From: Streptomyces sp.
Lineage (GTDB): Bacteria > Actinomycetota > Actinomycetes > Streptomycetales > Streptomycetaceae
Assembly: GCF_036566765.1 (NCBI RefSeq)
Contig: NZ_DATCVQ010000709.1
Span: forward strand, 7,200-71,199
Direction of reading: 5' to 3'
DNA: 64,000 nt
Part shown: positions 5,294 to 23,107 of the stretch, piece by piece
How the letters are laid out: every line of letters begins with the position of its first letter
How positions within the stretch are numbered: the stretch's first letter is position 1
Translations under genes and position numbers: made by a program
Notes under the pieces: generated by a model
The model's database searches: none
What the model was told of the DNA's origin: nothing
What the model saw: only the letters and a program-made list of their open reading frames with translations

Positions 5294-5333
5294 CGCTCCG
5301 GCCGGGGCCCGTACGACGTCGTACGACGTACGA

Positions 5334-6948: not shown

Positions 6949-7209
6949 TCAGACGATCGAACCGTCCACGAAGCACCACCGCCAGCTCTCGTTGGGTTCG
7001 AAGGTTCGCATCACCGCGTGTCCGCTGGTCGTGAAGTGCCCGGTCGCGTGCCGTCCGGCCGAGGAGTCGCAGCAGCCCACGTGCCCGCACTGCAGGCAGA
7101 GCCGCAGCTGTACCGGGTGGGCCCCGTCGGCCAGGCACTCCGGGCAGGTCGGGCTGAGGGGCGCCGGCTCGGGGCGCGGCAGTTCTGCAACGTGGGGGCA
7201 CTCGCTCAT
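6949..7209 (-). CDS. UBP-type zinc finger protein
   Basis: CPEC...LRLCLQCGHVGCCDSS..RHATGH...SWRWCFVD. Confidence 0.88.
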   Translation of the reverse strand: MSECPHVAELPRPEPAPLSPTCPECLADGAHPVQLRLCLQCGHVGCCDSSAGRHATGHFTTSGHAVMRTFEPNESWRWCFVDGSIV

Positions 7210-7253
7210 GATGGCCAGGTTACGTGGCACGTGGGACAGCGGGGACGGGAGAG

Positions 7254-9778: not shown

Positions 9779-9791
9779 CCGACCATTGTCG

Positions 9792-9854
9792 GGTGCGGGC
9801 CCGTCGAGCGGTGCAGGCCCGTCCAGCCGGTGCGGGCCCGTCCAGGCGGTGCGG
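9792..9854. repeat. Degenerate 18-19 bp tandem repeat, about 3.4 copies
   Basis: GGTGCGGGCCCGTCGAGC / GGTGCAGGCCCGTCCAGCC / GGTGCGGGCCCGTCCAGGC / GGTGCGG. Confidence 0.75.
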
Positions 9855-9884
9855 CCGGCCCGCAGGCCGGCCGCACCGAGCGCG

Positions 9885-10475
9885 TCAGCGCAGGCGGTCG
9901 GCGATGCGCTCCCGCATCGAGGCCATCGTGAAGCCGCGCGGGTCGATCTTGCCCGGCTGCCACTCCAGGTGGCCGATCACCGAGCGGTGGGTCCAGCCGT
10001 GGACCCGGCAGACCGCCGCCGCGGCCTTCTCGATCGCCTCCAGCTGGACCTTGGGCCAGGGGTCCTTGCCGTCGCCGAGGTTCTCGCACTCGAAGCCGTA
10101 GAAGTGCCGGTTGCCGTCCGTCGTGGCCTCGTTGTCCGGGGGCAGCCTCTGCTCGGCGATCACCGCGCGCAGGACGTCGTCGTCCCCGGAGCCCGCGTGG
10201 TTGGCGCGGCCGTAGCCGACCAGATGGACGGTGCCGTCCTTGGCGATCACGCCGTGGCACAGCGGGCCGGGCAGCGCGCTGTGGCCGTCGCGGCAGATCC
10301 GGACGGTGTTCGCGGTGCCCCGGGTGACCGTGTGGTGGATCATTACGCCGTGCACCGGGCCCCAGGGGCCCTTGTGGTTGCGGTTGTGGGTGCGCCAGTC
10401 GCCGACCTCGACGACCTTCAGGCCCTCGTCGCGCAGCGCGTCGAGGAACCTGCTCGCGGACATGGGTGGGGCCAT
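9885..10475 (-). CDS. N-acetylmuramoyl-L-alanine amidase (amidase_2)
   Basis: GVMIHHT, ANHAG, YGFECEN and VIGHLEWQPGKIDP motifs. Confidence 0.88.
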   Translation of the reverse strand: MAPPMSASRFLDALRDEGLKVVEVGDWRTHNRNHKGPWGPVHGVMIHHTVTRGTANTVRICRDGHSALPGPLCHGVIAKDGTVHLVGYGRANHAGSGDDDVLRAVIAEQRLPPDNEATTDGNRHFYGFECENLGDGKDPWPKVQLEAIEKAAAAVCRVHGWTHRSVIGHLEWQPGKIDPRGFTMASMRERIADRLR

Positions 10476-10755
10476 GGCCGACTCCTTACTCGTGGTTCGC
10501 GTACTGCCGGATGTCTTCCTGGATGTACCGGAGTACGGGAAACGGAGGCGCTGCGTTCGGACGCTGTGCGAGCCGATCCGGACACCCTCCGCGGGCGCTC
10601 CGGCGGACCCTCGCCAACGGCTGCGCCGATCGAGTGGAAACCGAGTGTCATGCCCCGTGGTGCACGGATCATGCCCACTCATTTGTGTAATGGCGGGCGT
10701 ACTCAGCGTGCTGAAAGCTTCCTCTCGCAGGTCTACATGATCGAGAGGGAGATCC

Positions 10756-12171
10756 ATGTCGGTTGGTTCGGTTGGCGACGAGGTCCGCGCGGAGCAGGCG
10801 CCCCCGCAGCAGAGTCTCGGTACCGCCGCCGCGCGGAACCTGGCGACCACCACGAAGTCGGCACCGCAGATGCAGGAGATCACCTCTCGGTGGCTGCTGC
10901 GGATGCTGCCGTGGGTGCAGGTGCAGGGCGGTACCTACCGGGTGAACCGGAGGCTCAGCTATTCCGTGGGTGACGGCCGTGTCACCTTCGTCCAGACCGG
11001 GGAGCGGGTCGCCGTCATCCCGGCCGAGCTCGGTGAGCTCCCCGCGCTGCGCGGCTACGAGGACGAGGAGGCCCTCACGGAACTGGCGGCCCGCTGCCGG
11101 CAGCGCGAGTTCGCGGCCGGTGAGGTGATCGCCGTCTCCGGCGAGGCCACCGACCGGGTCTACCTGCTCGCGCACGGCAGGGTCGAGCAGATCGGCGAAG
11201 GCCCGTACGGCGACGAGGCGGTGCTCGGAGTCCTCGCCGACGGCGCGTACTTCGGCGACGGCGCGCTCATCGACCCCGAGGCCACCTGGGAGTGGACCGC
11301 CCGCGCGGCCACCTCCTGCACCGTCCTCGAACTCACCCGGGACGACGTGCGCAACCTGGCGGACCGGGCGGTCTCGCTCGCCGCGCACCTCGCGACCGTG
11401 GCCGCGCTGCCCCATCAGCGCACCAACAAGTACGGCGAGGCCGAGATCGACCTGTCCGCCGGCCATGTCGGCGAGGCGGTCGTCCCGCACACCTACGTCG
11501 ACTACGACGCCTCGCCCCGCGAGTACGAGCTGAGCGTCGCCCAGACCGTTCTCAAGGTGCACAGCCGGGTCGCCGACCTCTACAACCAGCCGATGAACCA
11601 GACCGAGCAGCAGTTGCGGCTCACGGTCGAGGCGCTGCGCGAGCGCCAGGAGCACGAGCTGATCAACAACAGGGAGTTCGGCCTGCTGGCCAACTGCGAC
11701 TACGGGCAGCGCCTGCAGCCGCACGACGGCGCGCCCAGCCCGGACGACATGGACGAGCTGCTGTCCCGGCGGCGTGGCTCCAAGCTCTTCCTCGCCCACC
11801 CGCGCGCCATCGCCGCCTTCGGGCGCGAGTGCAACAAGCGGGGCCTGGTGCCCGAGTCGATCGAGGTCAACGGCAACCGGATCCCGACCTGGCGCGGGGT
11901 GCCGATCTTCCCGTGCAACAAGATCCCGGTCTCGGACGCCCGGACCACGTCGATCATCTGCATGCGTACCGGCGAGTCCGACCAGGGCGTGATCGGTCTG
12001 CACCAGACCGGCCTGCCGGACGAGATCGAGCCCAGCCTCTCGGTCCGCTTCATGGGCATCGACGAGCAGGCGATCATCTCGTACCTGGTCACGGCCTACT
12101 ACTCGGCCGCCGTCCTGGTGCCGGACGCGCTCGGCGTGCTGGAGAACGTCGAGGTCAGCCGCTGGCGCTGA
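10756..12171 (+). CDS. Family 2B encapsulin shell protein with inserted cNMP-binding domain (EshA/EshB/SrpI-like)
   Basis: [28 protein letters not shown], central CBD (YFGDGAL), [30 protein letters not shown]. Confidence 0.9.
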
Positions 12172-12265
12172 CCCGGTGAGGGCGGCGGGGGCGCCGGGCC
12201 GAGTGCCCGCGCCCCCGCCGCCCGCGCCGCCGTACCGGCCCGTCGTGAAGGAAGTGACCGTGACC

Positions 12266-13309
12266 ATGACCAGCGCCCATGCCACGACCGACGGTCAGGG
12301 GGCCGTGGCACTCCTGGACCAGACCCGGACCGTCGTCAATCCCCAGCTCCGCTCCACCGTCGAGTCCCTGCCCGGATCCATACGGCGGGTCGCGATGTAC
12401 CACTTCGGCTGGGAGCAGGCCGACGGCACCCCGGCCGCCGGGCAGGCCGGCAAGGCGATCCGCCCCGCCCTCGTACTGGCCGCGACCCGGGCCCTCGGCG
12501 GCGACCCGGACCCGGCCGTGCGGGCGGCCGCGGCGGTGGAACTGGCGCACAACTTCACGCTGCTCCACGACGACATCGTCGACGAGGACCCGACGCGCCG
12601 TCACCGTCCCACCGCCTGGACGGTGTTCGGCATCCCGGACGCGTTGATCGCGGGCGACGCCATGCTGGCGCTGGCCCTGCGGCTGCTCGCGGAGGACGGC
12701 CATCCGGCGTCCGCCGCGGCCTCGGCCCGGCTCGCCGCCTGCGTCATCGAGCTGTGCGCCGGGCAGCAGGCGGACTGCGCGTTCGAGCGGCGGCCGCCGC
12801 ACGAGGTCTCGCTGGACGAGTGCCTCGCGATGGCCACCGCCAAGACGGGCGCGCTGCTGGGCTGCGCCTGCGCGCTGGGCGCGCTGTACGCGGGCGCGGG
12901 GGAGCGCGAGGTCGCGGCGATGGACGCGTTCGGCCGGGAGGCCGGGCTCGCCTTCCAGCTGATCGACGACCTGATCGGGATCTGGGGCGACCCGGACCGG
13001 ACCGGCAAGCCGGCCGGCGCGGACCTGGCCGCCCACAAGAAGTCCCTGCCGGTGGTGGCCGCGCTCACCTCGGGCACGGCCGCGGGCGCGGAGCTGGCGG
13101 GTCTGTACGGGGAGCCGGTGCTCGACCCGGCGGCGGTACGGGCGGCGGCGGACGCGGTCGAGCGGGCCGGCGGCCGGGACTGGGCGCAGGCCGAGGCGGC
13201 CGACCGGATGTCCCGGGCGGTGCACCAGCTCTCGCTGGCGGTGCCGGACCTGGCGGCGGCGGGCGACCTGCTGTCCCTCGCCGAGTTCGTAACGCGCCGG
13301 ACGAAGTGA
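12266..13309 (+). CDS. Polyprenyl transferase, predicted family 2 encapsulin cargo
   Basis: GKAIRP, HNFTLLHDDIVDED (FARM), GQQAD, KTGALL, FQLIDDLIG (SARM variant); immediately downstream of the encapsulin. Confidence 0.88.
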   Translation: MTSAHATTDGQGAVALLDQTRTVVNPQLRSTVESLPGSIRRVAMYHFGWEQADGTPAAGQAGKAIRPALVLAATRALGGDPDPAVRAAAAVELAHNFTLLHDDIVDEDPTRRHRPTAWTVFGIPDALIAGDAMLALALRLLAEDGHPASAAASARLAACVIELCAGQQADCAFERRPPHEVSLDECLAMATAKTGALLGCACALGALYAGAGEREVAAMDAFGREAGLAFQLIDDLIGIWGDPDRTGKPAGADLAAHKKSLPVVAALTSGTAAGAELAGLYGEPVLDPAAVRAAADAVERAGGRDWAQAEAADRMSRAVHQLSLAVPDLAAAGDLLSLAEFVTRRTK

Positions 13310-13331
13310 GGGGCGGCGCAGGAGCCGGGCG

Positions 13332-13907
13332 TCAGGCTTCCGGCACGATCCGGGTGACCGCGGTCTCGATGAGGGCGTCCAGGTCCCGGTCGGCGTGCAG
13401 GCCCGGGACCGTGAAGTGGTCGAGGAACAGGCCGGTGAGGGCCATGTACAGCAGCCGGACCGTTTCCGCGTCGCCCGGCAGCCCGGCGGCCAGGTGCCCC
13501 TGGATGTTCTGGTCGAGGACGGCGCGGAACACCTTGGTGAGCTGGGTGCGCAGCTCCGGGCGGCGGGTGGCCTCAAGTCGGAGTTCGAAGAGCCCCAGAT
13601 AACAGCTGCGCTCGGCCGCCATCCGCCGGGCGAGCCACTTCATCAGCTCGACGACCAGCGCCCGGCTCGGCTCGGGGCTCAGGGCGACCGCCAAGGAGTC
13701 GTCCTCGGGCGTCAGCCGTACGTAGATCCGGTCCGCGACCTGCGAGAGCAGCTGGTCGCGGTCGGTGAAGTAATTGGACGAGGTGCCCGTGGGCACACCC
13801 GCCCGGGCGTCGACGGCCCGGAACGTCAGCCCGCGGGCGCCCTCGTCCGCCAGTACCTCGATCGCCGCGTCCAGCAGCGCCGCCCTGCGCTCGGGATTCC
13901 TCGCCAC
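13332..13907 (-). CDS. TetR family transcriptional regulator
   Basis: EGARGLTFRAVDARAGVPTGTSSNYFTDRDQLL helix-turn-helix. Confidence 0.9.
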   Translation of the reverse strand: MARNPERRAALLDAAIEVLADEGARGLTFRAVDARAGVPTGTSSNYFTDRDQLLSQVADRIYVRLTPEDDSLAVALSPEPSRALVVELMKWLARRMAAERSCYLGLFELRLEATRRPELRTQLTKVFRAVLDQNIQGHLAAGLPGDAETVRLLYMALTGLFLDHFTVPGLHADRDLDALIETAVTRIVPEA

Positions 13908-13954
13908 CTGCGGACCTCCTCATTCCACTTCTTCTCGGAAAATAGCTCTTGCGT

Positions 13955-13990
13955 AACCACTACAGGTGAAGCACTATAACCGTCGTGGTT
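13955..13990. promoter_or_regulatory. Candidate TetR operator between divergent TetR and DHFR-like genes
   Basis: AACCACTAC...GTCGTGGTT imperfect inverted repeat in an AT-richer intergenic stretch. Confidence 0.45.
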
Positions 13991-14028
13991 GCGATCGCAG
14001 CCGCTTCCTGAAGAAGAAGAGGACCGGT

Positions 14029-14610
14029 TTGCGCAAGCTCACCTACTACGTGGCGTGCTCCCTCGACGGGTTCATCGGCGACCCGAAGGGCGATGCCACG
14101 TCCATGTTCAGCTTCCTGGACCCCGAGTACATCGGGTTCATGGCGACGGAGTACCCGGAGACCCTCCCCAGCCCCGGGCGCGAGCAGCTCGGTATCGACG
14201 CGCCCAACAAGCACTTCGACACCGTCATCCAGGGCCTGAGCAGCTACCGGCTCGCCCTGGACATCGGCGTCACCAGCCCGTACGGCCACCTGCGCGAGTA
14301 CGTGGCGACCCGCTCGCTCGCCGAGTCGCCGGACCCGAACGTCGAGCTGATCGCCGACGATCTGGTCGGCCGGATCCGCGAACTCAAGGCCGAGGACAGC
14401 CCGCTCGGGATCTGGCTCTGCGGCGGCTCGACCGTCGCCGGCGAGCTGATCGAGGAGATCGACGAGCTGATCATCAAGACGTACCCGCAGGTGTACGGCT
14501 CCGGAATGCCGATGTTCGGCGCGGGCTTCGAGCCCCGCGACTTCGAGCTCGGCGAGGTCCGCACCTTCGGCAACGGCGTGCTCGTCCGCACGTACACCAG
14601 GAAGCGGTGA
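14029..14610 (+). CDS. Dihydrofolate reductase-family (RibD C-terminal) protein
   Basis: LRKLTYYVACSLDGFI, IWLCGGS, LIDELIIKTYP; TTG start after an AGAGGA RBS. Confidence 0.88.
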   Translation: MRKLTYYVACSLDGFIGDPKGDATSMFSFLDPEYIGFMATEYPETLPSPGREQLGIDAPNKHFDTVIQGLSSYRLALDIGVTSPYGHLREYVATRSLAESPDPNVELIADDLVGRIRELKAEDSPLGIWLCGGSTVAGELIEEIDELIIKTYPQVYGSGMPMFGAGFEPRDFELGEVRTFGNGVLVRTYTRKR

Positions 14611-14636
14611 CCCCGGGCGCCGCCTACCCTTGAGGT

Positions 14637-14957
14637 ATGGGCAGCGAAGGACGCCGTACCGTCCGGGTCCCGCGGGCCGTGCCGGTGTGCCCGGCCTGCG
14701 GTCAGACCGTCGGCACAGTCATCGAGCGTCACAAGGTGCTGGGCGCGTGGGTCCCCGTCTGGGTGGCGCGCCCGTGCCACAACCCGAAGTGCGAGCTGTT
14801 CGAGCAGCCGCCCGAGGGACACCTGGGCGAGGCGCACGAGGACGAGGTCCAGGACGAGGTGCAGGGGGAGGCCCAGGGTGACGCCCAGGGTGAGCCCGAC
14901 ACCCCGTCGTCACCTGGCACAACGGACAAGACCGGGAGAAGTCCGGCCGACGGGTGA
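14637..14957 (+). CDS. Hypothetical protein with a CxxC/CxxxxC zinc-ribbon-like motif and acidic tail
   Basis: CPACG...CHNPKC; TACCCT 6 nt before the ATG suggests a leaderless transcript. Confidence 0.6.
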   Translation: MGSEGRRTVRVPRAVPVCPACGQTVGTVIERHKVLGAWVPVWVARPCHNPKCELFEQPPEGHLGEAHEDEVQDEVQGEAQGDAQGEPDTPSSPGTTDKTGRSPADG

Positions 14958-14999
14958 CCGGCCGAGCGGCGGAGCCGGTCATACCGCTACAGTCCGCGC

Positions 15000-15419
15000 A
15001 TGTCATCGGAGTCGACGGAAGTCTGGACCGGCTGGTACCGGGACCGACGTGGTGCGGAAGCGATCGTGATCACGGCGGGCGGGGGCCAAGTGGCCGCCCG
15101 CATCAGGGGAATCGAGTACACGGGCGCGAGCTTCGCGACCCTGCGCGCGGACGGCGGCGCCGGGGAGGCGCTGACCGGCTGCGTACTGGAGTGGGACCTG
15201 CCGCTCCCCGTCGTCAGCGAAGGAACCTCGCAACAGGCCACACTCAGCTGCCTGCTGACGCTCGGTGAGCGGACCGATCTGAGCCTCACCCTGCATTACG
15301 GCGGCGCGGCCTACGAGTCCGGCATCACCGGGGCCGACTTCGAGGAGGCCCTGGACCGCGTGCGCCGCCAGCTCCCGCCGGGCGCCGAGTTCGGCCCCCG
15401 GGTGCCGGCGGCGGCGTAA
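15000..15419 (+). CDS. DUF6304-like conserved hypothetical protein
   Basis: WTGWYRDRRG...LTGCVLEWDLPLPV...FEEALDRVRRQLPPG resembles the Streptomyces DUF6304 family (recall). Confidence 0.6.
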   Translation: MSSESTEVWTGWYRDRRGAEAIVITAGGGQVAARIRGIEYTGASFATLRADGGAGEALTGCVLEWDLPLPVVSEGTSQQATLSCLLTLGERTDLSLTLHYGGAAYESGITGADFEEALDRVRRQLPPGAEFGPRVPAAA

Positions 15420-15474
15420 CGCGGGGCCGCCCGCCGGGCCCATGGGCCCTCGGGCCCATGGGTCTCACGACACG

Positions 15475-15942
15475 TCAGGCGTGACCGCCCCAGCCCCACC
15501 GGGGGGTAGGGCCGGGGTCGCCGAGATCGGTGCCCGGCGCCGAGGCCGAGACGTCCTTGGCGATCCGGGTCCCCCACTCGAAGTACTCCAGCACCCGGCG
15601 GCGCAGCAGCGCGTCGTCCGGGAGCTCCTTCTCGACCGCCGCGGTCATCAGCTCCATCCAGCGCTGCCGCTGCTCCTCGGTGATCCCGAGACCGAGATGC
15701 GCGCGCAACAGGGCCTGATGGCCGCCCAGTTTCGCGGTGAACTCCGCCGGTCCCGAGAACACCTCGGCCAGCCATACGGCGACGTGCTGCACGTGCGTCG
15801 CGGTGAAGTTCACGAAGACCGGGGCGAGTAACGGGTCGGCGAGCACCGCCTCGTAGAAGGTGTCGGACAGCCGGCGCAGGGCGTCGGCCCCGCCCACGGC
15901 TTCGTAGAGCGTCGTGTCGTGTCCGGTGGATTCGGTGGACAT
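15475..15942 (-). CDS. Group II truncated hemoglobin
   Basis: TLYEAVGG..ALRRL...FYEAVLADPLLAPVF, FSGP..F, HLGLGITEEQRQRW. Confidence 0.88.
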   Translation of the reverse strand: MSTESTGHDTTLYEAVGGADALRRLSDTFYEAVLADPLLAPVFVNFTATHVQHVAVWLAEVFSGPAEFTAKLGGHQALLRAHLGLGITEEQRQRWMELMTAAVEKELPDDALLRRRVLEYFEWGTRIAKDVSASAPGTDLGDPGPTPRWGWGGHA

Positions 15943-16063
15943 GGAGGCCCCCTGGACGGATCGTCGGGCGTGGTGTAGATCGGTCGGCCCCAGTCATTCA
16001 CACCACCCGCCCCGCCGCCAAGGGCCCAGGGGTGGTGTCAGTCGGACCGGTCATCATGGGTCC

Positions 16064-16537
16064 ATGACCGACCCAGCCCCCCGAGTGCGCCACGCCCGCC
16101 CCGCCGACCTGCCCCGCGTGGCCGAACTCGCCGCCGAGCACGCCGCGTACGAGAAGGCGACCCCACCGTCCCCCGGCCTCGCCGCCCGCCTCGACCGCCT
16201 GCTCTTCGGCCCCCACCCGCCCCGGCTGCGCTGCCTGGTCGCCGAACTCCCCGACGGGAGCCTCGCGGGCTACGCCACCTGCGCCCCCGAACTCTCCACC
16301 TGGGACGGCGTGGAGTACCTCCACATGGACTGCCTCTACCTCTCCGCCGCCCACCGCGGCCTGGGCCTCGGCCCCCTCCTGATGGCCGCCGTCGAGGCAG
16401 AGGCCCGCACCCTGGGCCTCGCGGAGGTCCAGTGGCAGACCCCGACGTGGAACGAGGGCGCGATCCGCTTCTACGACCGCCTGGGCGCCCACGCGAAGCA
16501 GAAGCTCCGCTACTCCCTGCCGGTGTCCCCGGCCTGA
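16064..16537 (+). CDS. GNAT family N-acetyltransferase
   Basis: YLHMDCLYLSAAHRGLGLG (motif A), NEGAIRFYDRLG. Confidence 0.9.
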   Translation: MTDPAPRVRHARPADLPRVAELAAEHAAYEKATPPSPGLAARLDRLLFGPHPPRLRCLVAELPDGSLAGYATCAPELSTWDGVEYLHMDCLYLSAAHRGLGLGPLLMAAVEAEARTLGLAEVQWQTPTWNEGAIRFYDRLGAHAKQKLRYSLPVSPA

Positions 16538-16559
16538 GGCCGAGCCCCCGGACACGACG

Positions 16560-16592
16560 AACGGCCCGCCGGTCAGGTGCCGGCGGGCCGTT
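16560..16592. terminator. Hairpin terminator: ancestral terminator between the GNAT gene and sodN, now ~5.5 kb from sodN
   Basis: AACGGCCCGCCGG-tcaggtg-CCGGCGGGCCGTT, about 20 nt from the displaced sodN 3' remnant. Confidence 0.7.
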
Positions 16593-16611
16593 CGCGAGGA
16601 GGTGAGGAAGG

Positions 16612-16630
16612 TCAGGCCTTCTTCGTCTCC
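16612..16630 (-). repeat. att site: displaced original sodN 3' end (GGAGACGAAGAAGGCCTGA, E-T-K-K-A-stop)
   Basis: Matches 22138-22156 at 18 of 19 nt; followed by the ancestral terminator. Confidence 0.88.
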
Positions 16631-16790
16631 TAGTAATGGGGCGGGTCGGTGACCTGTGGGGATCTTCCCTGCGGGTCGCTGGCCTGGCCTTTTACCGATG
16701 GTTGGAGATGGGGTGCGTCGGTCCTGATCGGATGCCCTGCGGACTGTGCGCGGACTGACCAGCCAAACAGCACCAGGCAGCAATGCTGGG

Positions 16791-16994
16791 TCAGCGCCTC
16801 GCGGCCATCAACGTCATCGTGATGTTGCAGGCAAGAGCCAGAGTCGTCCCGAACGCTGCGGCCGCCCGAAAGCCAGTCGCCGGGTGAGTGGCCTCGTCTC
16901 GACGTGCCAGAAGTGCAGCAGCAGCCGCGACGAGGCCGGCAAGCAGCACGGCCACAGCGCAACCCAGGGCAACGGTAATGGCATGGTCAGACAC
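16791..16994 (-). CDS. Small two-TM membrane protein (island cargo)
   Basis: GTG with AGGAG RBS; VSDHAITVALGCAVAVLLAGLVAAAAALLARRD...; divergent from the HTH-NTPase gene. Confidence 0.55.
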   Translation of the reverse strand: MSDHAITVALGCAVAVLLAGLVAAAAALLARRDEATHPATGFRAAAAFGTTLALACNITMTLMAARR

Positions 16995-17113
16995 GATCGT
17001 CTCCTGTCGATGGGGCAATCTGTGACGCCGAGTCTCAGGAAGCGGTCGTTCGCCGTTGTTCGTGGCGGTAGAACTGGTCGAAGACGAACGGGGCCGAGCA
17101 TCGAAGGGTAGGA

Positions 17114-19660
17114 GTGGCCTTGGAAGAGGGTGCCGTGTCCGAAGTGGCTCTTGAGGAGCTTCGCACCCTCTTGGAGTGCGGGCTGGTAGAGCAAGGTGTG
17201 ACGAAGACGGCCCTGGCACGACGTGCCGGGCTGGGACGCACGGCGGTGAGCGAAGCGTTCAATAGAGCCGCTTCGGTTCCATCCGCGAGAGTTGTCGGGG
17301 AACTGGGCCGGGCGCTCCGACTTGATGTGCCGGCACTTTTGGAACTTCGAGCTGCAGCTGCTGGAATTCGCCGTGCGGCCTTAGCGCGAGATGCCGTTAC
17401 ACCGTCACCTGGCATCGGCCTTCCTATTGCGCACTTTGACCCACACGACCTGGAAGTTCATCCCGCCATTGACGTGGCTTTCGATGGGGATTCTGGGGCC
17501 GGAGCGCAGCGCCGCCGACTACCTCAGTATGTGCGTCGTCAGCATGATCGAGAACTGGACCAAGTTGTCGAGGATGCGATCGAAGGCCATAGCGGTATGA
17601 CTGTTCTCGTCGGGCCGTCCTCGACGGGAAAGACACGCGCTTGTTGGGAGGCGATTCAGCCTTTGGCCTCCTTGGGGTGGCATCTCTGGCACCCTCTTGG
17701 ACCAACGCGAGCCGAGGCCGTGCTGAGCGATCTACAGCATGTAGGGCCACACACCGTGGTGTGGCTCAACGAAGCTCAACATTACTTTGACTTAAGCCGA
17801 GATATTGCGGAGCAGGTTGCTGCTTCCTTTCGCGCTCTCCTCGCCGACCGACAGACTCAACCTGTGCTGGTGCTGGGAACGTTGTGGAACGAATACGCTA
17901 CTACTTATACGGCTCTTCCCTCGCCAATCAGCAAGGATCTTTACCCGCAAGTTAGGGAGTTGCTTGCAGGTCGATTACTTATGGTCCCCGAGCGTTTTGA
18001 CGCGCCGGCCCTCCGAGAGGCCCGGATATTGGCAATTGAGGGTGATCGTCAGCTCTCCCATGCGCTGAAGTATTCAAAGGAAGGCCTTCTCGCTCAGTAT
18101 CTCGCGGGCGCCCCTGCCTTGCTTGAGCGGTATCGGATGGCTAGTCCCCCTGTGCGGGCGTTGATCCAATGCGTCATGGACGCGCGACGCTTTGGTGTCG
18201 GGAGCAATGTGCCCGTAGATTTTATTTCCCATGCCGTCGAGGATTACCTGACGGATGGCGAATATGCGGCACTCAGTGGGGATTGGTTAGCTGAATCATT
18301 TCGCGAAGCCGGGAGGTCGGTCCACGGGAACTTGGCGCCTCTCACTACAATCCGTCACCGTAAATCATCTCCTCCTGATGGAGGTACCCCTGAAGCCAGG
18401 GTTAGGTTGGCTGACTCGCTGGAGCAATTTGGGCGGGTTGACCGGAGTCCGTATTGCCCACCTCAATCTTTTTGGTCGGCGGCTTGCGAGCTACTGGAAT
18501 CTGCTGAGGTGCTTGCGAAGCTTGCTGAAGCTGCCATTGATCGGCACAGGCTCTATTGGGCCCGCCGCTTAACCGAGCGGGTTGTGGAGCGGCGGGTTGA
18601 TGCCTCCGTGTTGACTGAGTTGGCACACGCCTGGGTTGAGAGCGACCCAGGCGAAGCTGAACGTCTATTTCTGAAATCTACTGAACTGGGTGACGCTGGT
18701 GCTATGGGTAGCCTAGGTTACCGCTGCGAGGAGCGGGGGGAATGGGAAAGGGCGAAAGAGTGGTTCCGTAGGGGTGCAGAGTCTGGTGACGGATTTTCCG
18801 CTTGCGAATTGGGTAGAATTTATTCAGAATTGGGTGACCTGGAATCATCTGAACGGTTCTACCGTAGAGCGATAGAGCTGGGCGAAACTGAATCTCTCGG
18901 GGGGCTGGCTCGCGTGCTAGTCGAAAAGGGGGGAGATATAGATGAGGCTTTGACTCTGCTCCAGCGATCGATCTGCACGATGGTGCGCCAGACTGCGCGG
19001 GTTTCGATGGTGAGTCTGGAAGATGATGCGGGTATCCAGCGGTCCGGTGTTACCCCTTGGTCGTCAAGAGGGGAATCTGCGGGCTCGGCTCGACGGATCG
19101 ATGAGGTGGGCGATGTCGGAGACTGCGCGAAGTTTTTGGAGGCCGTTACCGCTGCCGCGAATGACGGTGATGCATACGGGATGCGATGCCTCTATTATTT
19201 GTTGAGGTCGACAGATGAAGTAGCGGCTGATGAATTTCTTGCATCCGCTGCGCGGGGCGGAAATTCTTTTGCTGTGGTTGAGCTGGCTAGAGAGCTGAAG
19301 AGTCGTGGTGATTTGACTCGGGCCGAGTCTCTCTATCGGCAATCTATTGGTTCGGGTGATAATAAATCTTTGGTCGCCCTTGCTGGCTTGATGGAGGAGG
19401 CTAAAAACTTCGAAGAAGCCGAATCGCTTTATTGGCAGGCGATCGACTCGGGGGAAATTTATGCCGCGCATCGGCTTAGTCGGCTGAAAGAAGAGCGTGG
19501 GGATCGGGACGGGGCTGAAGAAGTCGCTCTCCTGGCTGCGGATGCGGGACACGGCGCTGCCGCTCGAGCTTTGTCTGAGGTGAGGGTGAGGCGTGGAGAG
19601 GATGGGGGGTTGTGGCTTTATGGCCTGAATCCTGACGGCACCCCGTCATCCAATATTTGA
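17114..19660 (+). CDS. XRE-HTH + STAND-like P-loop NTPase + Sel1/TPR repeat protein (848 aa)
   Basis: KTALARRAGLGRTAVSEAF HTH; VLVGPSSTGKT Walker A; VVWLNE Walker B-like; repeated G(D/N)xxA..L...L...G..A...Y..A Sel1 units; at least 5 TTA codons; lower GC. Confidence 0.82.
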   Translation: MALEEGAVSEVALEELRTLLECGLVEQGVTKTALARRAGLGRTAVSEAFNRAASVPSARVVGELGRALRLDVPALLELRAAAAGIRRAALARDAVTPSPGIGLPIAHFDPHDLEVHPAIDVAFDGDSGAGAQRRRLPQYVRRQHDRELDQVVEDAIEGHSGMTVLVGPSSTGKTRACWEAIQPLASLGWHLWHPLGPTRAEAVLSDLQHVGPHTVVWLNEAQHYFDLSRDIAEQVAASFRALLADRQTQPVLVLGTLWNEYATTYTALPSPISKDLYPQVRELLAGRLLMVPERFDAPALREARILAIEGDRQLSHALKYSKEGLLAQYLAGAPALLERYRMASPPVRALIQCVMDARRFGVGSNVPVDFISHAVEDYLTDGEYAALSGDWLAESFREAGRSVHGNLAPLTTIRHRKSSPPDGGTPEARVRLADSLEQFGRVDRSPYCPPQSFWSAACELLESAEVLAKLAEAAIDRHRLYWARRLTERVVERRVDASVLTELAHAWVESDPGEAERLFLKSTELGDAGAMGSLGYRCEERGEWERAKEWFRRGAESGDGFSACELGRIYSELGDLESSERFYRRAIELGETESLGGLARVLVEKGGDIDEALTLLQRSICTMVRQTARVSMVSLEDDAGIQRSGVTPWSSRGESAGSARRIDEVGDVGDCAKFLEAVTAAANDGDAYGMRCLYYLLRSTDEVAADEFLASAARGGNSFAVVELARELKSRGDLTRAESLYRQSIGSGDNKSLVALAGLMEEAKNFEEAESLYWQAIDSGEIYAAHRLSRLKEERGDRDGAEEVALLAADAGHGAAARALSEVRVRRGEDGGLWLYGLNPDGTPSSNI

Positions 19661-19914
19661 TAGCTATCAAGAATCAGGTAATACGCCTTTGCTGGGGTGT
19701 GGATCGGGTTGGAGGGGATGTCTGTTCGGATCGAATGGGTGAGGCGTCGAGGTAGAGCTCCCGGACCGCGGTTTCGGTGATGGACTCGCGCGGCTCTCTC
19801 TTATCGACGGGGAGGGTCCGCCGGGATTCTGATTGCTGACGATGGGGCGCACGGTCTTGATCGCGTGTGCTTCGGACTGCTGCGCGGTGCTCCGCCGCTG
19901 GAGTGACGAGGGGC

Positions 19915-20535
19915 CTACTGTCGGAGCGAATTGTTGGTCCAGAAGGAGCGGGCCTTCTTCAGAAGCTTCTCGGCGGCGTCGCCGTACGATGCCGCACTGC
20001 TCAGAGCGGCGAAGGCTTTGTTGTAGAGGTCGAGTTCGCTCTGTTCCGTGATGTCCACGGAGGAGGAGACGAGTTCGACGTGGGCCCGGTCGCTGTCGCC
20101 GTAGATGTTGAACGCGTGGACGGGGAACAGGTCCACCCGTGCGGTGGAGGGAAGGATCCCGAGGGTGAGGGAGGCCAGGCCGAGCTCTCGCAGGAGGCGC
20201 TCGATCTGTTGTCGCATGACCTCGGGCCCGCCGATGTTCGTGTAGAGAGCCTGCTCTCCGAGGACGACGTCGTAGTGGTGCTCGCCGTCGTAGAGCACTT
20301 GCTGTCGCTGCATGCGCTTGGCGACGCCCGCCGGCACGTCGTTCGGGATGCCGAGGAAGTCGACGACCTGGCCGAGGATCACGGTGGCGTATGCCTCGGT
20401 CTGGAGCGTGCCCCAGACCATCGTGGGCACGTACGCCTTGCCTTCGCGCGTGCTCTGGTACCAGCGCACCACGTCGTCCTGAGTCGCTTCCGTACCGGTG
20501 GACAGACGATCCGTCCAGGGAACTGAACTGGTCAC
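19915..20535 (-). CDS. Stand-alone DUF5753-domain protein (no HTH)
   Basis: VWGTLQTEAYA, RMQRQQVL, VVLGEQALYTNIGGPEVMRQQIERL, ELDLYNKAFAAL match the DUF5753 pattern. Confidence 0.8.
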   Translation of the reverse strand: MTSSVPWTDRLSTGTEATQDDVVRWYQSTREGKAYVPTMVWGTLQTEAYATVILGQVVDFLGIPNDVPAGVAKRMQRQQVLYDGEHHYDVVLGEQALYTNIGGPEVMRQQIERLLRELGLASLTLGILPSTARVDLFPVHAFNIYGDSDRAHVELVSSSVDITEQSELDLYNKAFAALSSAASYGDAAEKLLKKARSFWTNNSLRQ

Positions 20536-20637
20536 CGCATCCCCTCCTGCGTGGTGCCGCCGGGGCGGCTTCGATGGGCGTTGCCGCTCCGGCCGAGAAT
20601 GGCTCCGAGTGTCCGATCTTGTAAGAGCGGGAATCGG

Positions 20638-20991
20638 TCAGGCCATGCGCTTCATCTCGATGGCGAGGGCTCCGAGGGCTTCCTTCTCGGGGCCGTAGAT
20701 GGTGCGGATGTTGGCGAGCTGCTGGTCGCGGGTGGCGGTCGGGTTGACGTTGGACGGGCCCTCGCTGTCGAGGAGGGCCTCGAAGTCGGGGTACTCGGTG
20801 ACTCGGAGGACTTCGACATCGCAGGTCTCGTCCGTGCCCTTGATGCGGAAGCGGATGGTGTCGCCGGCGGCGAGGTCCGCGAGGTGCGGGTACTTGACCC
20901 GCACCTCGATGGTCTTGGTGCCTGCGGCGACGAGCTCGAAGTACTGGCGGTAGAGGTTGAGCTCGCGGACGCGGGCGGTGCGGCCGGTCAT
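20638..20991 (-). CDS. ASCH domain protein
   Basis: YFELVAAGTKTIEVRV (GxKxxExR motif), GDTIRF; ATGA overlap with the upstream gene. Confidence 0.85.
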   Translation of the reverse strand: MTGRTARVRELNLYRQYFELVAAGTKTIEVRVKYPHLADLAAGDTIRFRIKGTDETCDVEVLRVTEYPDFEALLDSEGPSNVNPTATRDQQLANIRTIYGPEKEALGALAIEMKRMA

Positions 20992-21590
20992 CGGGAAGGA
21001 ACGCTCCTGGGGGACGGTGCGGTGATCAGGCGGCCGATCTCGGCAGCCGAGTACGAGCGGAAGAAGTGGCGGGGGTCGGAGAGCAGGGTCTCGGCCATGG
21101 CAAGCAGCTGGTCGGCGTACTTAGTGACGGTGCCGGGCCACTGCCGGGTGTCGAGCATCCAGGGGGCGGCTCCCTCGGGCAAGGGGGCACGGCCTTCTCG
21201 TATGAGGGATTTCGACAGCTTGGCGCCGGTGTCGGTGACGACCTGGGGGCAGAACAGGCGGGCCGGCAGCTGGGCGCGGGTGAGGCCCACGGCCTGGAGG
21301 GCCTCGTCGACGAGGTGGGAGCCGAAGACCCAGTCGCCGCCCTTGACCATGACGTGCAGGGTGCCCTGGGGGCTGGCCAGGGCGAGTTCCTTGACCAGGT
21401 TGCGGTAGAGGGTGGCCAGGTCCAGGTAGCCGCCGGCGGTGGGCGTGATGGTGGCCTCGTAGGGGCCGTGGTGGAGGCAGACGGCGGAGACCACCGCCGA
21501 CTCGGGCCCGGTGAGGCGGACCCGGGTGCGTTCGGCGTGCTTCTCCGCCCAGCCGCAGTCGGGGTGCGGGCAGGGGACTCGGACGTCGAC
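20988..21590 (-). pseudogene. 5'-truncated class I aminoacyl-tRNA synthetase-like (LysRS1-like) gene
   Basis: RVPCPHPDCG...CLHHG zinc knuckle, KGGDW, TGAKLSKS (KMSKS-like); no HIGH region or start codon; upstream sequence is antisense integrase. Confidence 0.65.
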
Positions 21591-22130
21591 TTCAAGGCCG
21601 GCGCCATCCGCGTCGAGCGGCAGCGGCTCCAGTTTGGGAAGATCGGCCCGCCGAAGACCGCCAAGTCCCGGCGTACGGTTCCGGTCGGCGATGTCGTCAC
21701 CGACGCGCTCCTCGCGCATCTTGCCGCACGTCCGTCCAGGGAGTGGCTGTTCACGATGGAGGAGGGCGAGCCGCTCAACTACCGGCGGTGGAAGACCGAA
21801 TGGAACGGGGCTCGCAAGGCGCTCCAGGCGGCCGAGAACGGGGCCGCCGAGCGGGAAGGCCGCAAGCCCGTCGAGCTGCCGCACATGGTCACCCACGACC
21901 TGCGGCACTTCTACGCCTCCGCGCTCATCGCCGGCGGAGCGAGCGTCAAGCAGGTTCAGCTGGTCCTCGGGCACGCGTCCGCCGTCATCACGCTGCGGAT
22001 CTATGCGCACTTGTGGCCCGGGGAAGAAGACCGCACCCGGGCCGTCATGGACGCCGTGCTCGGCGGCCTGCGGACCGGGTGCGGACAGCTAAACGGCCTG
22101 ACCCGCGACAGTGCAGGTCAGGCCGCCTAG
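21582..22130 (+). pseudogene. 5'-truncated tyrosine integrase (C-terminal catalytic part only)
   Basis: DVDF....IRVERQ, PKT, HDLRHFYAS, LGHAS..ITLRIYAH; lacks the first catalytic Arg box and DNA-binding domains. Confidence 0.88.
22094..22125. terminator. Element-supplied hairpin just downstream of sodN (possible replacement terminator)
   Basis: CGGCCTGACC-N12-GGTCAGGCCG, 12 nt past the sodN stop. Confidence 0.4.
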
Positions 22131-22137
22131 AGGGAGA

Positions 22138-22533
22138 TCAAGCCTTCTTCGTCTCCCAGAAGATGCGGTCGAGCTCGGCGATGAGTTCCAGCGCCTTCTC
22201 GCCCGTCTTCGGGTCGTTCGACGCCTTGGCGGCCGAGAGGGCCTTCAGGGTGTCGTTGACCAGCTGGTGGAGCTGGGGGAACTTCTCGAAGTGCGGGGGC
22301 TTGAAGTAGTCGCTCCACAGCACCGAGACGTGGTGCTTGGCGAGCTCGGCGCGCTGCTCCTTGATGATCAGGGCACGGGTGCGGAAGTCCGCGTCCTCGT
22401 TGGCCTGGTACTTCTCCTGCACGGCCTTGACCGACTCCGCCTCGATGCGGGCCTGGGCCGGGTCGTACACGCCACAGGGCAGGTCGCAGTGGGCGCTGAC
22501 CTTCACCTTGGGGGCAAACAGGCGGGAAAGCAT
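22138..22533 (-). CDS. sodN: Nickel superoxide dismutase precursor
   Basis: 14-aa leader followed by the HCDLPCGVYDPA nickel hook. Confidence 0.97.
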   Translation of the reverse strand: MLSRLFAPKVKVSAHCDLPCGVYDPAQARIEAESVKAVQEKYQANEDADFRTRALIIKEQRAELAKHHVSVLWSDYFKPPHFEKFPQLHQLVNDTLKALSAAKASNDPKTGEKALELIAELDRIFWETKKA

Positions 22534-22675
22534 GGAGCTGTCCTTCCTCGTGATCGTCTTCTCAAGTGGGAGATTACTCGGTGAGAAGGTTGTTTTCGCG
22601 AGGGGGCCCTAGTGCTTAGGACAAAAGTCCAGGGTCACCATGGGACTCGTGGACGATCGGACCGGGAGGTGCCGG

Positions 22676-23107
22676 ATGACGGATTCGGGGCGGGAATCGT
22701 TGGTGCCGTTCGGGATCGCCGAGGTGACGGGGTTGTCGATGGTGCCCACGCTGCTCCACGGCGACCAGCTGCTGGTGCACTACGGGGGGCCGCTGCGGCC
22801 CGGTGACGTGGCCGTGCTGCGTCATCCGCTGCAGCAGGATCTGCTCATCGTCAAACGGCTGATCGAGCGACAGGACGCCGGCTGGTGGGTGCTCGGCGAC
22901 AATCCGGCCGCCGAGGGGGACAGCCGGGTGTTCGGCGCCGTGCCGGTGGAGCTCGTGCTCGGGCGTGTACGGGCCCGGTACCGGCCGGTCACGCCCGGGC
23001 GTCAGCGGTCGGCGGGCGTGGTGCTCTCCTGGCTGTTCTCGGCCGTCCGGCCGGTGTTCTCGGACCGCTCGGCTTCCAGGGCCTCCTGGCGCTTGCGGGC
23101 CCGGTAG
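22676..23107 (+). CDS. sodX: NiSOD maturation peptidase (S26-like)
   Basis: VTGLSMVPTL (Ser), IVKRL (Lys), GDN...DSRVFG; divergent from sodN. Confidence 0.9.
   Translation: MTDSGRESLVPFGIAEVTGLSMVPTLLHGDQLLVHYGGPLRPGDVAVLRHPLQQDLLIVKRLIERQDAGWWVLGDNPAAEGDSRVFGAVPVELVLGRVRARYRPVTPGRQRSAGVVLSWLFSAVRPVFSDRSASRASWRLRAR

What the first reader, a model, noticed from the sequence alone, without database searches (positions are those of the whole stretch)
16612..22156. Integrative element that uses the last codons of sodN (nickel SOD) as its attachment site
Seen: GCCTTCTTCGTCTCC occurs exactly at 16616-16630 and 22142-22156 (18/19 nt including the stop codon). The copy at 16612-16630 is the displaced sodN end (E-T-K-K-A-TGA), still next to the ancestral terminator. 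The other copy completes an intact sodN with GCT-TGA supplied by the element. A tyrosine-integrase remnant reads toward that copy. Known: actinomycete integrative elements mostly target tRNA 3' ends and regenerate them. Inference: this integrase family targets a protein-coding stress gene and preserves it; I do not recall sodN as a described attB.
Basis: partly seen in the sequence, partly recalled or inferred. Interest (0 to 1): 0.75.

Follow-up and report, generated by a model that had tools for sequence, protein, structure and literature searches.

The report
Decayed mobile element at sodN's end
A 5.5-kb stretch of foreign DNA sits in the last codons of the nickel superoxide dismutase gene; it is a broken copy of a widespread, apparently undescribed family of Streptomyces mobile elements that always insert at this spot and rebuild the gene's end.

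Summary

- **Repeat and island.** GCCTTCTTCGTCTCC occurs only at 16616-16630 and 22142-22156, with 0 matches expected by chance. It brackets a low-GC island of about 5.5 kb, and sodN stays intact.
- **Empty sites.** Relatives with an unoccupied site show sodN ending in ...GCC-TGA followed by a hairpin terminator. One of them (G254) has the same GNAT neighbour as the window.
- **Intact relatives.** Three relatives carry 14.5-16 kb elements bounded by the same 15-mer. Their backbone is tyrosine integrase, Xre-type HTH, Xis, RepAM (DUF3631), a weak MobC-like match and a relaxase. No TraB was found.
- **Site specificity.** Of the 80 closest integrase genes found in species genomes, 74 abut sodN, and the core always starts 15 nt after the integrase's last codon.
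- **Prevalence.** 61 of 151 sampled Streptomyces species carry an integrase 3' end beside sodN, and most of these are remnants.
- **This copy is a fossil.** A deletion of about 10.5 kb removed the first 201 integrase residues, Xis, RepAM and the relaxase. The genome holds no close integrase paralogue.
- **Novelty.** I found no paper naming sodN as an attachment site. I file this as a new member of a known kind (gene-3'-end-specific integrative elements), of moderate interest.

The parts
16064..16537 (+). GNAT acetyltransferase gene, the ancestral left neighbour of sodN
   Evidence: Pfam Acetyltransf_1, E 4e-15. The same gene lies next to sodN at the empty site of G254/L154.
16558..16594 (.). 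Ancestral bidirectional terminator hairpin, now separated from sodN
   Evidence: Perfect 15-nt arms (I17). The 91-nt stretch containing it folds at -53.7 kcal/mol, z -4.5. Equivalent hairpins follow the sodN stop directly at empty sites.
16612..16630 (-). attL: displaced sodN end (E-T-K-K-A-stop), with the 15-bp core at 16616-16630
   Evidence: The left flank matches the empty-site sequence ...ggtgagga(gga)aggTCAGGCCTTCTTCGTCTCC of G254.
16631..16755 (+). Conserved left end of the element (P' arm). It holds TGACCTG at 16650-16656, TGCGGAC at 16738-16744 and a degenerate second copy CGCGGAC at 16749-16755.
   Evidence: 85-90% identical to the left ends of the elements in G014, G024, G013 and G012, and 76.5% to that of G007.
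16791..16994 (-). Small 67-aa ORF of hydrophobic composition, possibly membrane-spanning; cargo of unknown function
   Evidence: ORF and translation. No Pfam hit.
17114..19660 (+). 848-aa cargo protein, low GC. TPR repeats pass the Pfam cut-offs; the HTH_31, AAA_16 (P-loop) and Sel1 matches are below cut-off.
   Evidence: Pfam, GC 55-58%, no PADLOC hit. This segment is absent from the G014 element.
19915..20535 (-). DUF5753 protein lacking the usual N-terminal HTH
   Evidence: Pfam DUF5753, E 2e-27. It matches only positions 109-277 of the 280-position NCBIfam model NF058600.
20638..20991 (-). ASCH-domain protein, family cargo shared with G014 and G012
   Evidence: Pfam ASCH, E 2e-10. Window 20654-21586 is 94.6% identical to oriented positions 7984-8916 of the G014 locus L059.
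20988..21578 (-). C-terminal roughly 200 aa of a 489-559-aa family cargo protein, truncated at the deletion junction. It keeps a KLSKS motif; the HIGT motif seen in G014 is lost.
   Evidence: Alignment to the G014 ORF 8318-9997. No Pfam or NCBIfam hit.
21573..21592 (.). Junction of the roughly 10.5-kb internal deletion (GGGGAC|TCGGACGT|CGACTT)
   Evidence: Oriented positions 8917-19398 of the G014 locus L059 are missing in the window. The two breakpoints share an imperfect 6/8 microhomology, gcggaggt against tcggacgt.
21579..22130 (+). Tyrosine integrase pseudogene. It covers residues 202-384 only, 95% identical to the intact G014 integrase. It keeps HDLRH, LGHAS and RIYAHL and lacks the box-I Arg in GLRIGE.
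   Evidence: Pfam Phage_integrase, profile positions 47-168 of 172. Own-genome search and motif positions.
22069..22086 (+). Two TGCGGAC direct repeats 11 nt apart inside the integrase 3' coding sequence. These are candidate arm-type integrase-binding sites (P arm).
   Evidence: copies at -73 and -62 relative to the core mirror those at +122 and +133 in the left end, all in one orientation. The whole window has only 9 forward and 2 reverse copies.
22089..22130 (-). Element-supplied hairpin 8 nt 3' of the sodN stop, an inferred replacement terminator. It includes GCAGGTCA at 22113-22120, the inverted partner of TGACCTG at 16650-16656.
   Evidence: Inverted repeat I19. An 18-bp stem forms in the MFE fold of the sodN-sense RNA; the 91-nt stretch folds at -44.8 kcal/mol, z -3.45.
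22138..22156 (-). attR: the functional sodN end, with the core at 22142-22156. The third base of the last Ala codon and the stop (GCT-TGA) are supplied by the element.
   Evidence: TCAA occurs at occupied sites with intact elements (G014, G007), while the closest empty sites have TCAG.
22138..22533 (-). sodN, nickel superoxide dismutase, intact at 131 aa
   Evidence: Pfam Sod_Ni, E 5e-43. sodX (S26-type peptidase domain) follows divergently at 22640-23107.

Best explanation
The interval 16616-22156 is the decayed remnant of a site-specific integrative element. It belongs to a large Streptomyces family whose tyrosine integrase recombines the element's attP with the last five codons of sodN.

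**How integration works (inferred).**
- attP carries a copy of the 15-bp core GCCTTCTT(C/G)GTCTCC.
- Strand exchange inside this core inserts the element between sodN and its terminator.
- That leaves a displaced sodN end at attL, next to the old terminator.
- It also leaves a rebuilt, fully coding sodN at attR, where the final Ala codon's third base, the stop codon and a new weaker hairpin come from the element.

**What intact family members look like (14.5-16 kb).** They encode Int, an Xre-type regulator, an Xis-type excisionase, a RepAM/DUF3631 replication protein, a weakly MobC-like protein and a MobA/VirD2-type relaxase. No TraB translocase was found. They most likely excise, replicate briefly and are mobilised as single-stranded DNA by a helper conjugation system. 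Variable low-GC cargo sits next to the left end.

**What happened in this genome.** A deletion of about 10.5 kb at an imperfect microhomology fused a cargo gene to integrase codon 202. It removed the N-terminal half of Int together with Xis, RepAM, the MobC-like gene and the relaxase. With no close integrase elsewhere in the genome, the island is now fixed.

**Shown by computation:** the repeats, the empty sites, the intact relatives, the constant Int-core spacing, the prevalence and the deletion.

**Inferred:** the crossover position, the arm-type sites, excision, replication, the transfer route and the terminator role of the hairpin.
For: - **Repeat.** The repeat is unique in the window and not expected by chance.
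- **Foreign composition.** GC drops inside the interval.
- **Integrase fragment.** It matches Pfam Phage_integrase and is 95% identical to residues 201-384 of an intact 384-aa integrase.
- **Empty sites.** Several relatives have unoccupied sites, including G254, which has the same GNAT neighbour and matches the joined flanks over positions 1-475.
- **Intact elements.** G014, G024 and G013 carry elements bounded by the same core, with Int, HTH, Xis (HTH_17), DUF3631 and a relaxase (PF03432, E 1.8e-9); the MobC match is weak, E 1.7e-3, below the Pfam cut-off.
- **Site specificity.** 74 of the 80 closest integrase loci have sodN directly downstream, with the core 15 nt after the last Int codon. 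Of the 80, 77 keep HTH, 75 keep Xis and 72 keep RepAM in synteny.
- **Prevalence.** The Int-end/sodN-end signature occurs in 61 of 151 species, with 0 in the reversed-pattern control.
- **Collinearity and deletion.** The window is collinear with G014 apart from the deletion and a swapped cargo segment.
- **attP anatomy.** The left end is conserved for about 140-146 nt, with paired TGCGGAC repeats in both arms.
- **Horizontal spread.** Divergence of int and of sodN is only weakly coupled (Spearman 0.24), and int is more similar than sodN in 29% of pairs.
Against: - No excision product, circular form or transfer was observed for any family member.
- The MobC assignment is weak (E 1.7e-3, below the Pfam cut-off).
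- No helper type IV secretion system was looked for.
- Only the 80 closest of 346 integrase relatives were inspected, so more distant members may use other sites. L120 and L142 already show diverged cores.
- The three intact elements were not scanned ORF by ORF for every small gene, so a divergent translocase cannot be fully excluded.
- The terminator role of the element hairpin is unproven, and that hairpin is not uniformly conserved across the family.
Confidence: 0.9

Rival explanations
1. It is a remnant of a classic actinomycete integrative and conjugative element (AICE, pSAM2/pMEA300 type), transferred as double-stranded DNA by a TraB/FtsK-like translocase. On this view the relaxase is incidental or acts in replication.
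For: - The Int-Xis-Rep module uses a RepAM/DUF3631 initiator as in pMEA300-type AICEs (Ghinet 2011, PMC3218068).
- Size is in the AICE range at 14.5-16 kb.
- The G024 element carries a NUDIX gene. From my own knowledge, not checked here, this resembles the Pif immunity factor of pSAM2.
- Tandem accretion is seen, as described for AICEs (Choufa 2022, PMC9513070).
Against: - No FtsK_SpoIIIE/TraB domain appeared in any larger ORF of the three intact elements.
- A MobA/VirD2-type relaxase is conserved with a weakly MobC-like gene: G024 and G013 are 82-92% identical to G014 for the relaxase and 63-91% for the MobC-like gene, and L206 is 87% and 79%.
Confidence: 0.06
2. It is a remnant of a prophage or phage satellite that uses sodN as its attB.
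For: - The integrase is distantly (30-35%) similar to actinobacteriophage integrases.
- One family member (L206) lies inside an IMG/VR-predicted provirus contig.
- An earlier scan note (e1-5245417) reports a tail-tip-carrying island at a superoxide dismutase gene end in another actinobacterium. I did not check that claim.
Against: - No capsid, terminase, portal or tail genes occur in the three intact Streptomyces elements, whose backbone is a plasmid-like RepAM/MobC-like/relaxase set.
- L206 has the same plasmid-like backbone. The adjoining DNA gave only non-diagnostic PHROG hits.
- No phage record holds an integrase above 36% identity.
Confidence: 0.03
3. The repeat is incidental. The island arrived by homologous recombination or another non-site-specific route, and the sodN-end copy is a by-product.
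For: The repeat is short (15 nt exact), and the element has no working integrase today.
Against: - The same core bounds intact elements in other species, at a fixed distance from the integrase stop in 74 of 80 loci.
- The conserved element left end begins exactly at the core.
- Empty sites join exactly at the core.
Confidence: 0.01

Closest known systems
Actinomycete integrative and conjugative elements (pSAM2, SLP1, pMEA300 type)
   Same: - Tyrosine integrase plus Xis at one end, and a plasmid-type replication protein (RepAM/DUF3631, as in pMEA300-type elements; PMC3218068).
- Size of 10-20 kb.
- attP contains a copy of the 3' end of the target gene, so the target is regenerated.
- Tandem accretion and frequent decay (PMC9513070).
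   Different: - The target is the last five codons of a protein-coding gene (sodN), not a tRNA.
- No TraB/FtsK translocase was found.
- A MobA/VirD2-type relaxase and a weakly MobC-like protein are conserved instead.
dusA-associated integrases and their genomic islands (Farrugia et al. 2015, PMC4482086)
   Same: - A clade of tyrosine integrases dedicated to one conserved protein-coding gene and found in hundreds of genomes.
- Islands of variable content.
- The inserted element restores the interrupted gene end.
   Different: - Those insert in the 5' end of dusA in Proteobacteria, and the integrase is their only common gene.
- Here the site is the extreme 3' end of sodN in Streptomyces, and a whole backbone (HTH, Xis, RepAM, MobC-like gene, relaxase) travels with the integrase.
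- Sequence relatedness between the two integrase clades was not tested.
Integrative mobilizable elements (IMEs) and cis-mobilizable remnants at 3' ends of housekeeping genes in streptococci (review PMC5704250; ICESt1/ICESt3 at fda is from my own knowledge)
   Same: - An integration module plus the element's own relaxase, with no mating-pore genes found here.
- Insertion in the 3' end of a conserved gene.
- Tandem accretion, and integrase-less or decayed derivatives flanked by att repeats.
   Different: - A different phylum, and unrelated proteins as far as tested.
- The 2017 review lists only one canonical IME from Actinobacteria, so a large Streptomyces family would be new to that catalogue.
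- The helper conjugation system is unknown.
Streptomyces AICEs inserted in protein-coding genes such as rlmN (Choufa et al. 2022, PMC9513070)
   Same: Streptomyces tyrosine-integrase elements with short direct repeats inside a conserved protein-coding gene.
   Different: - Those carry TraB and Rep and use other targets.
- sodN does not appear among the 51 insertion sites listed in that study.

Membership tests
Site-specific integrative element (genomic island made by a tyrosine recombinase) | Tyrosine recombinase gene at one end of the island | tested here: met
   Pfam Phage_integrase matches the ORF ending at 22130. It is only a fragment, residues 202-384. Intact 384-aa versions sit at the same position in relatives.
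Site-specific integrative element (genomic island made by a tyrosine recombinase) | Direct repeats (att core) at both ends, one within the target gene | tested here: met
   A 15-nt exact repeat is unique in the window. The same core bounds elements in G014, G024, G013, G007 and G012.
Site-specific integrative element (genomic island made by a tyrosine recombinase) | Empty target site in relatives that equals the two flanks joined at the core | tested here: met
   G254/L154 matches the joined flanks over positions 1-475. Many other empty sites have a terminator directly after the sodN stop.
Site-specific integrative element (genomic island made by a tyrosine recombinase) | Excision to a circular form with attP, and restoration of attB | not testable with these tools
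The window copy also lacks a functional integrase. Int-core-left-end junctions were seen only as internal junctions of tandem arrays.
Integrative mobilizable element (IME) | Own relaxase (with or without accessory factor) but no mating-pore or coupling-protein genes | tested here: inconclusive
   - Intact relatives carry a relaxase (PF03432, E 1.8e-9) and a weak MobC match (E 1.7e-3, below cut-off), with no FtsK/TraB or VirB4-like domain among the scanned ORFs.
- The window copy has lost these genes.
- Not every small ORF was scanned.
Integrative mobilizable element (IME) | Mobilisation in trans by a helper conjugative element | not testable with these tools
   This needs mating experiments.
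Actinomycete integrative and conjugative element (AICE) | TraB/FtsK-SpoIIIE-type dsDNA translocase | tested here: not met
   No FtsK_SpoIIIE hit appeared in the backbone or larger cargo ORFs of the G014, G024 and G013 elements.
Actinomycete integrative and conjugative element (AICE) | Int/Xis module plus plasmid-type replication initiator (RepSA, RepAM or Prim-Pol) | tested here: met
   In relatives, DUF3631 (RepAM) scores E 6e-73 and HTH_17 (Xis) E 1e-9. The equivalence of RepAM and DUF3631 is taken from PMC3218068. Both genes are deleted in the window.
Prophage | Structural and packaging genes (capsid, portal, terminase, tail) | tested here: not met
   None appeared among the Pfam-scanned ORFs of the intact elements. 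PHROG hits next to L206 were not diagnostic.

The most novel reading that the evidence does not exclude
The sodN-end elements are more than passive passengers.

- Integration swaps sodN's strong native terminator for a weaker hairpin built from the integrase's own 3' coding sequence. That sequence also holds the P-arm TGCGGAC repeats.
- Transcription of the nickel- and stress-regulated sodN could therefore read antisense into int.
- This would couple element stability or excision to the host's metal and oxidative state.
- Together with a conserved relaxase in a TraB-less backbone, it would imply that helper-dependent single-strand conjugation is far more common in Streptomyces than the TraB paradigm suggests.
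Probability: 0.15. Interest if true: 0.7.

Novelty: new member of a known kind. Interest (0 to 1): 0.5.

Why it matters
- **A major integration hot spot.** The 3' end of sodN is a main docking site for mobile DNA in Streptomyces. About 40% of sampled species carry an integrase 3' end there, intact or as a scar. None of the mobile-element surveys and reviews I consulted lists it.
- **A different kind of backbone.** These elements have a relaxase and RepAM and no detectable TraB. That differs from the AICEs that dominate thinking about Streptomyces gene transfer, and it raises the question of which helper moves them.
- **A possible tool.** An intact integrase with its roughly 350-bp attP could give a new orthogonal integration vector. 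Its target is conserved in almost every Streptomyces: the sodN region was found in 397 of 401 genomes.
- **An effect on the host gene.** Insertion changes the 3' untranslated region and terminator of a stress gene, which could alter sodN expression.
- **This window.** The copy here is an ordinary fossil. Its low-GC cargo genes are now fixed chromosomal genes.

Tried and rejected
- **Conserved terminator hairpin.** RNAalifold on 71 unique sequences did not recover the window's 18-bp stem as a consensus; only a short central stem is common. I therefore keep 'replacement terminator' as an inference.
- **Remnants retained because they became sodN's terminator.** This idea is weakened on two counts.
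  - Very short remnants lacking the hairpin region exist (L180, L181, L187, L188).
  - Occupied sites fold less stably than empty ones: -42.7 against -57.9 kcal/mol over 99 nt, p = 8e-8.
- **Defence annotation of the cargo.** PADLOC gave no hits.
- **A free plasmid or phage form.** No integrase above 36% identity exists in the PLSDB or INPHARED collections.
- **Narrowing the crossover point from att polymorphisms.**
  - The A/G before the core places exchange to its right.
  - One C/G difference between attL and attR in G024 hints at the left half of the core.
  - The inverted GCAGGTCA/TGACCTGC pair is centred on core position ~7, while the sodN inverted repeat CTTCTT-N7-CAGAAG suggests SGTCTCC as the overlap region.
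  - These hints disagree, so I report only 'within the 15-bp core'.
- **Literature.** Eight full-text searches and four papers searched for sodN or superoxide, one including its supplement, found no link between sodN and an integrase or attB.
Full report
**1. The observation**

The 15-mer GCCTTCTTCGTCTCC occurs exactly twice in the 64-kb window, at 16616-16630 and 22142-22156. That holds even with one mismatch allowed, and no match is expected from shuffled sequence. Gap-free extension gives a 30-nt repeat at 87%, 16604-16633 against 22130-22159.

The right copy forms the last codons of an intact 131-aa nickel superoxide dismutase gene, sodN, at 22138-22533 on the minus strand (Pfam Sod_Ni, E 5e-43). 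The S26-type peptidase gene sodX follows divergently. The left copy reads E-T-K-K-A-stop on the minus strand. It lies 17 nt from a perfect 15-bp-stem hairpin at 16558-16594, which follows a GNAT acetyltransferase gene.

Between the copies, GC falls from about 72% to 55-58%. A tyrosine-integrase fragment ends 11 nt before the right copy.

**2. What lies between the repeats**

From left to right the island holds:
- a conserved element end of about 140 nt (16631-16755);
- a small 67-aa ORF of hydrophobic composition (16791-16994, -);
- an 848-aa TPR-repeat protein with weak, below-cut-off HTH, P-loop NTPase and Sel1 matches (17114-19660, +);
- a DUF5753 protein without its usual HTH (19915-20535, -);
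- an ASCH protein (20638-20991, -);
- the C-terminal roughly 200 aa of an unassigned protein (20988-21578, -);
- integrase residues 202-384 (21579-22130, +).

The integrase fragment keeps the HxxR, H and Y motifs but lacks the first catalytic arginine (GLRIGE) and the whole N-terminal half. The next-best integrase in this genome is only 37% identical. The island therefore has no cognate recombinase.

**3. Empty sites**

In the first 20 Streptomyces relatives, several show the sodN stop followed directly by a hairpin terminator. I joined the two window flanks at the core and searched 401 genomes of the genus.
- G254 (L154) matches the whole 475-nt query. It has the same GNAT gene, a hairpin, then ...ggtgaggaggaaggTCAGGCCTTCTTCGTCTCCcagaag.
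- This is the window's attL left flank joined to its attR right flank.
- Among the relatives closest in sodN sequence, G181, G338, G289, G371 and G143 are also unoccupied.

**4. Intact relatives and the family backbone**

In G014, G024 and G013 the same core recurs 14.5-16 kb from sodN, and in G007 and G012 at 13-16 kb. Immediately inside the distal copy, all of them share the window's left-end sequence TAGTAAYGGGSCGGGTCGGTGACCTG....

The G014 element encodes, reading back from sodN:
- a 384-aa integrase (P0001);
- a 176-aa Xre-type HTH protein;
- an HTH_17 excisionase-type protein;
- a 539-aa DUF3631 protein, the RepAM-type initiator of actinomycete elements according to Ghinet 2011 (PMC3218068);
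- a weak MobC-like protein;
- a 565-aa MobA/VirD2-type relaxase.

G024 and G013 have the same six genes. No FtsK/TraB domain was found in the backbone or in the larger cargo ORFs. The cargo holds an SMC/AAA_21-like ATPase, NUDIX, a methyltransferase, a HAD protein, an ABC ATPase and others.

The family therefore looks like an integrative mobilizable element with a plasmid-type replication gene, not a TraB-driven AICE and not a prophage.

**5. Site specificity and prevalence**

A scan of one genome per species found 346 loci encoding relatives of P0001. I inspected the 80 best, at 83-100% identity.
- In 74 of them sodN lies directly downstream, on the opposite strand. The core starts exactly 15 nt after the last integrase codon.
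- Of the six exceptions, L103 and L139 show an Int-end, core, left-end junction. That is the internal junction expected in a tandem array.
- L125 carries the core plus a few more sodN bases and then other DNA.
- L120 and L142 have diverged cores, and L084 is truncated.
- Of the 80 loci, 77 keep the HTH gene, 75 Xis and 72 RepAM in the same order.

In an even sample of the genus, an integrase 3' end abuts the sodN end in 61 of 151 species. The reversed-pattern control gave none.

A closer census of 60 species classed 5 as having a full integrase and 19 as remnants. The remnants that tblastn detected start at residues 216-351 and end at 379 or 384, and several others show only the DNA signature. 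A few very short remnants were also seen. Remnants therefore outnumber intact copies about four to one. Tandem accretion is visible in G024, G013 and G012.

**6. How the window's copy decayed**

- Window 20654-21586 is 94.6% identical to oriented positions 7984-8916 of the G014 locus L059.
- Window 21579-22171 is 94.6% identical to oriented positions 19399-19991 of the same locus.
- The roughly 10.5 kb between these positions is missing here.
- The breakpoints share an imperfect 6/8 microhomology, which points to illegitimate deletion.
- The low-GC segment 16756-20653 replaces a different low-GC segment in G014. The region next to the left end therefore behaves as a variable cargo slot.

**7. 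Inferred attP anatomy and mechanism**

I rebuilt attP as Int end, core and left end. Both arms carry pairs of TGCGGAC 11 nt apart, at -73/-62 and +122/+133, all in one orientation. An inverted pair GCAGGTCA/TGACCTGC lies at -29 and +34. The left pair of TGCGGAC repeats lies inside the integrase's C-terminal codons (LRTGCGQ). I read these as arm-type and accessory binding sites, but this is inference from sequence alone.

The element-derived A in TCAA at attR, and the end of identity after ...TCTCC, place strand exchange within the 15-bp core. Finer mapping was inconsistent, as set out under tried and rejected.

Integration leaves SodN unchanged: GCC becomes GCT, both alanine, and TGA is retained. 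It does replace the 3' flank. In the window an 18-bp hairpin made of integrase 3' coding DNA starts 8 nt after the stop. Across 53 species, the 99 nt after the stop fold less stably at occupied sites than at unoccupied ones: -42.7 ± 6.9 against -57.9 ± 7.3 kcal/mol, p = 8e-8.

**8. Evidence for mobility**

Among 74 loci, nucleotide identity of int and of the adjacent sodN is only weakly correlated (Spearman 0.24). In 29% of pairs int is more similar than sodN, for example 96.3% against 88.4%. This fits horizontal spread, though not very recent spread.

**9. Comparison with what is known**

- No integrase above 36% identity exists in the plasmid or phage collections.
- Full-text searches found no paper connecting sodN with an integrase, attB or a mobile element.
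- The detailed Streptomyces survey of Choufa 2022 lists tRNA genes, rlmN and other genes as targets, but not sodN.
- The 2017 IME review lists a single canonical IME from Actinobacteria.

Conceptually the closest parallels are these:
- AICEs share the module and its decay behaviour, but differ in target and transfer genes.
- The dusA-associated integrases (PMC4482086) are likewise a clade dedicated to one protein-coding gene.
- Streptococcal IMEs and ICEs at 3' ends of housekeeping genes are a further parallel.

Two earlier notes of this scan, both unchecked AI notes, report the same sodN-end targeting in other genomes. My results agree with them independently.

**10. Verdict**

The window holds a fossil of a large, apparently undescribed family of sodN-3'-end-specific integrative elements, probably mobilizable. 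This is a new member of a well-known kind of system. It is of moderate interest because of its prevalence, its TraB-less relaxase-bearing backbone in Streptomyces, and its potential as an integration tool.

Noticed in passing
L155 (G181), oriented positions ~300-1510: This relative is close in sodN sequence (99% over the first 270 nt, 94% over 1.8 kb). Its sodN is followed by a normal hairpin. About 1.2 kb further on lies a second, low-GC sodN-like end, TCAGGACTTCTTTGTTTCCCAGAAGATGGG, reading ...IFWETKKS-stop. It flanks a low-GC 1.2-kb segment with no integrase, and may be the scar of a different element.
   Followed up: partly
L206 7005-7040 and L125 4167-4200: After the core, about 15-18 further sodN bases (CAGAAGATCYKGTCG...) are followed by unrelated DNA containing a GGTGACCTGCA-like motif. 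A second element family with a longer sodN-derived att site seems to stack next to the relaxase-bearing elements. L206 lies in an IMG/VR-predicted provirus, but its PHROG hits were not diagnostic.
   Followed up: partly
window 16756-20653; L059 (G014) oriented 5617-7983; L053 (G024) oriented 4138-6654; L056 (G013) oriented 4870-7550: The region next to the element's left end is a variable low-GC cargo slot. Its content differs between genomes:
- here, an 848-aa TPR-repeat protein (weak HTH and P-loop matches) and a DUF5753 protein;
- in G014, a 212-aa protein and a 440-aa protein with a nuclease-like C-terminal motif (EVK...D);
- in G024, an 838-aa SMC/AAA_21-like ATPase;
- in G013, an ABC ATPase and a DUF7224 membrane protein.

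None hit PADLOC.
   Followed up: partly
window 20988-21578 (-); full version in L059 oriented 8318-9997: A family cargo protein of about 490-560 aa has HIGT and KLSKS motifs reminiscent of class I aminoacyl-tRNA synthetases, but no Pfam or NCBIfam hit. It sits next to an ASCH-domain gene. In the window only the C-terminal third survives.
   Followed up: no
L120 and L142, about 15 nt after the integrase stop: Integrase relatives at 84-89% identity are followed by diverged cores (CCCTTCTTCGTCTCGTAG and GACCTGCTTCGCCTCGTAG) with no sodN within 3 kb. They may be specificity variants or internal junctions of arrays.
   Followed up: no
L184, L186, L194, L039, L047 (40-55 nt 3' of the sodN stop): Several sites without the integrase-end signature share a CTGACCTGC/CTGACCAGC motif at a similar distance from the core. 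L186 also has an integrase-like hit (residues 28-200) upstream. These may be scars of another element lineage at the same site.
   Followed up: no
L027-L032 (other genera of the same order): In the six neighbouring-genus genomes checked, sodN ends in GCCTGCTTGGTCTCC or GCCGCCTTGGTCTCC. All six sites are unoccupied.
   Followed up: partly
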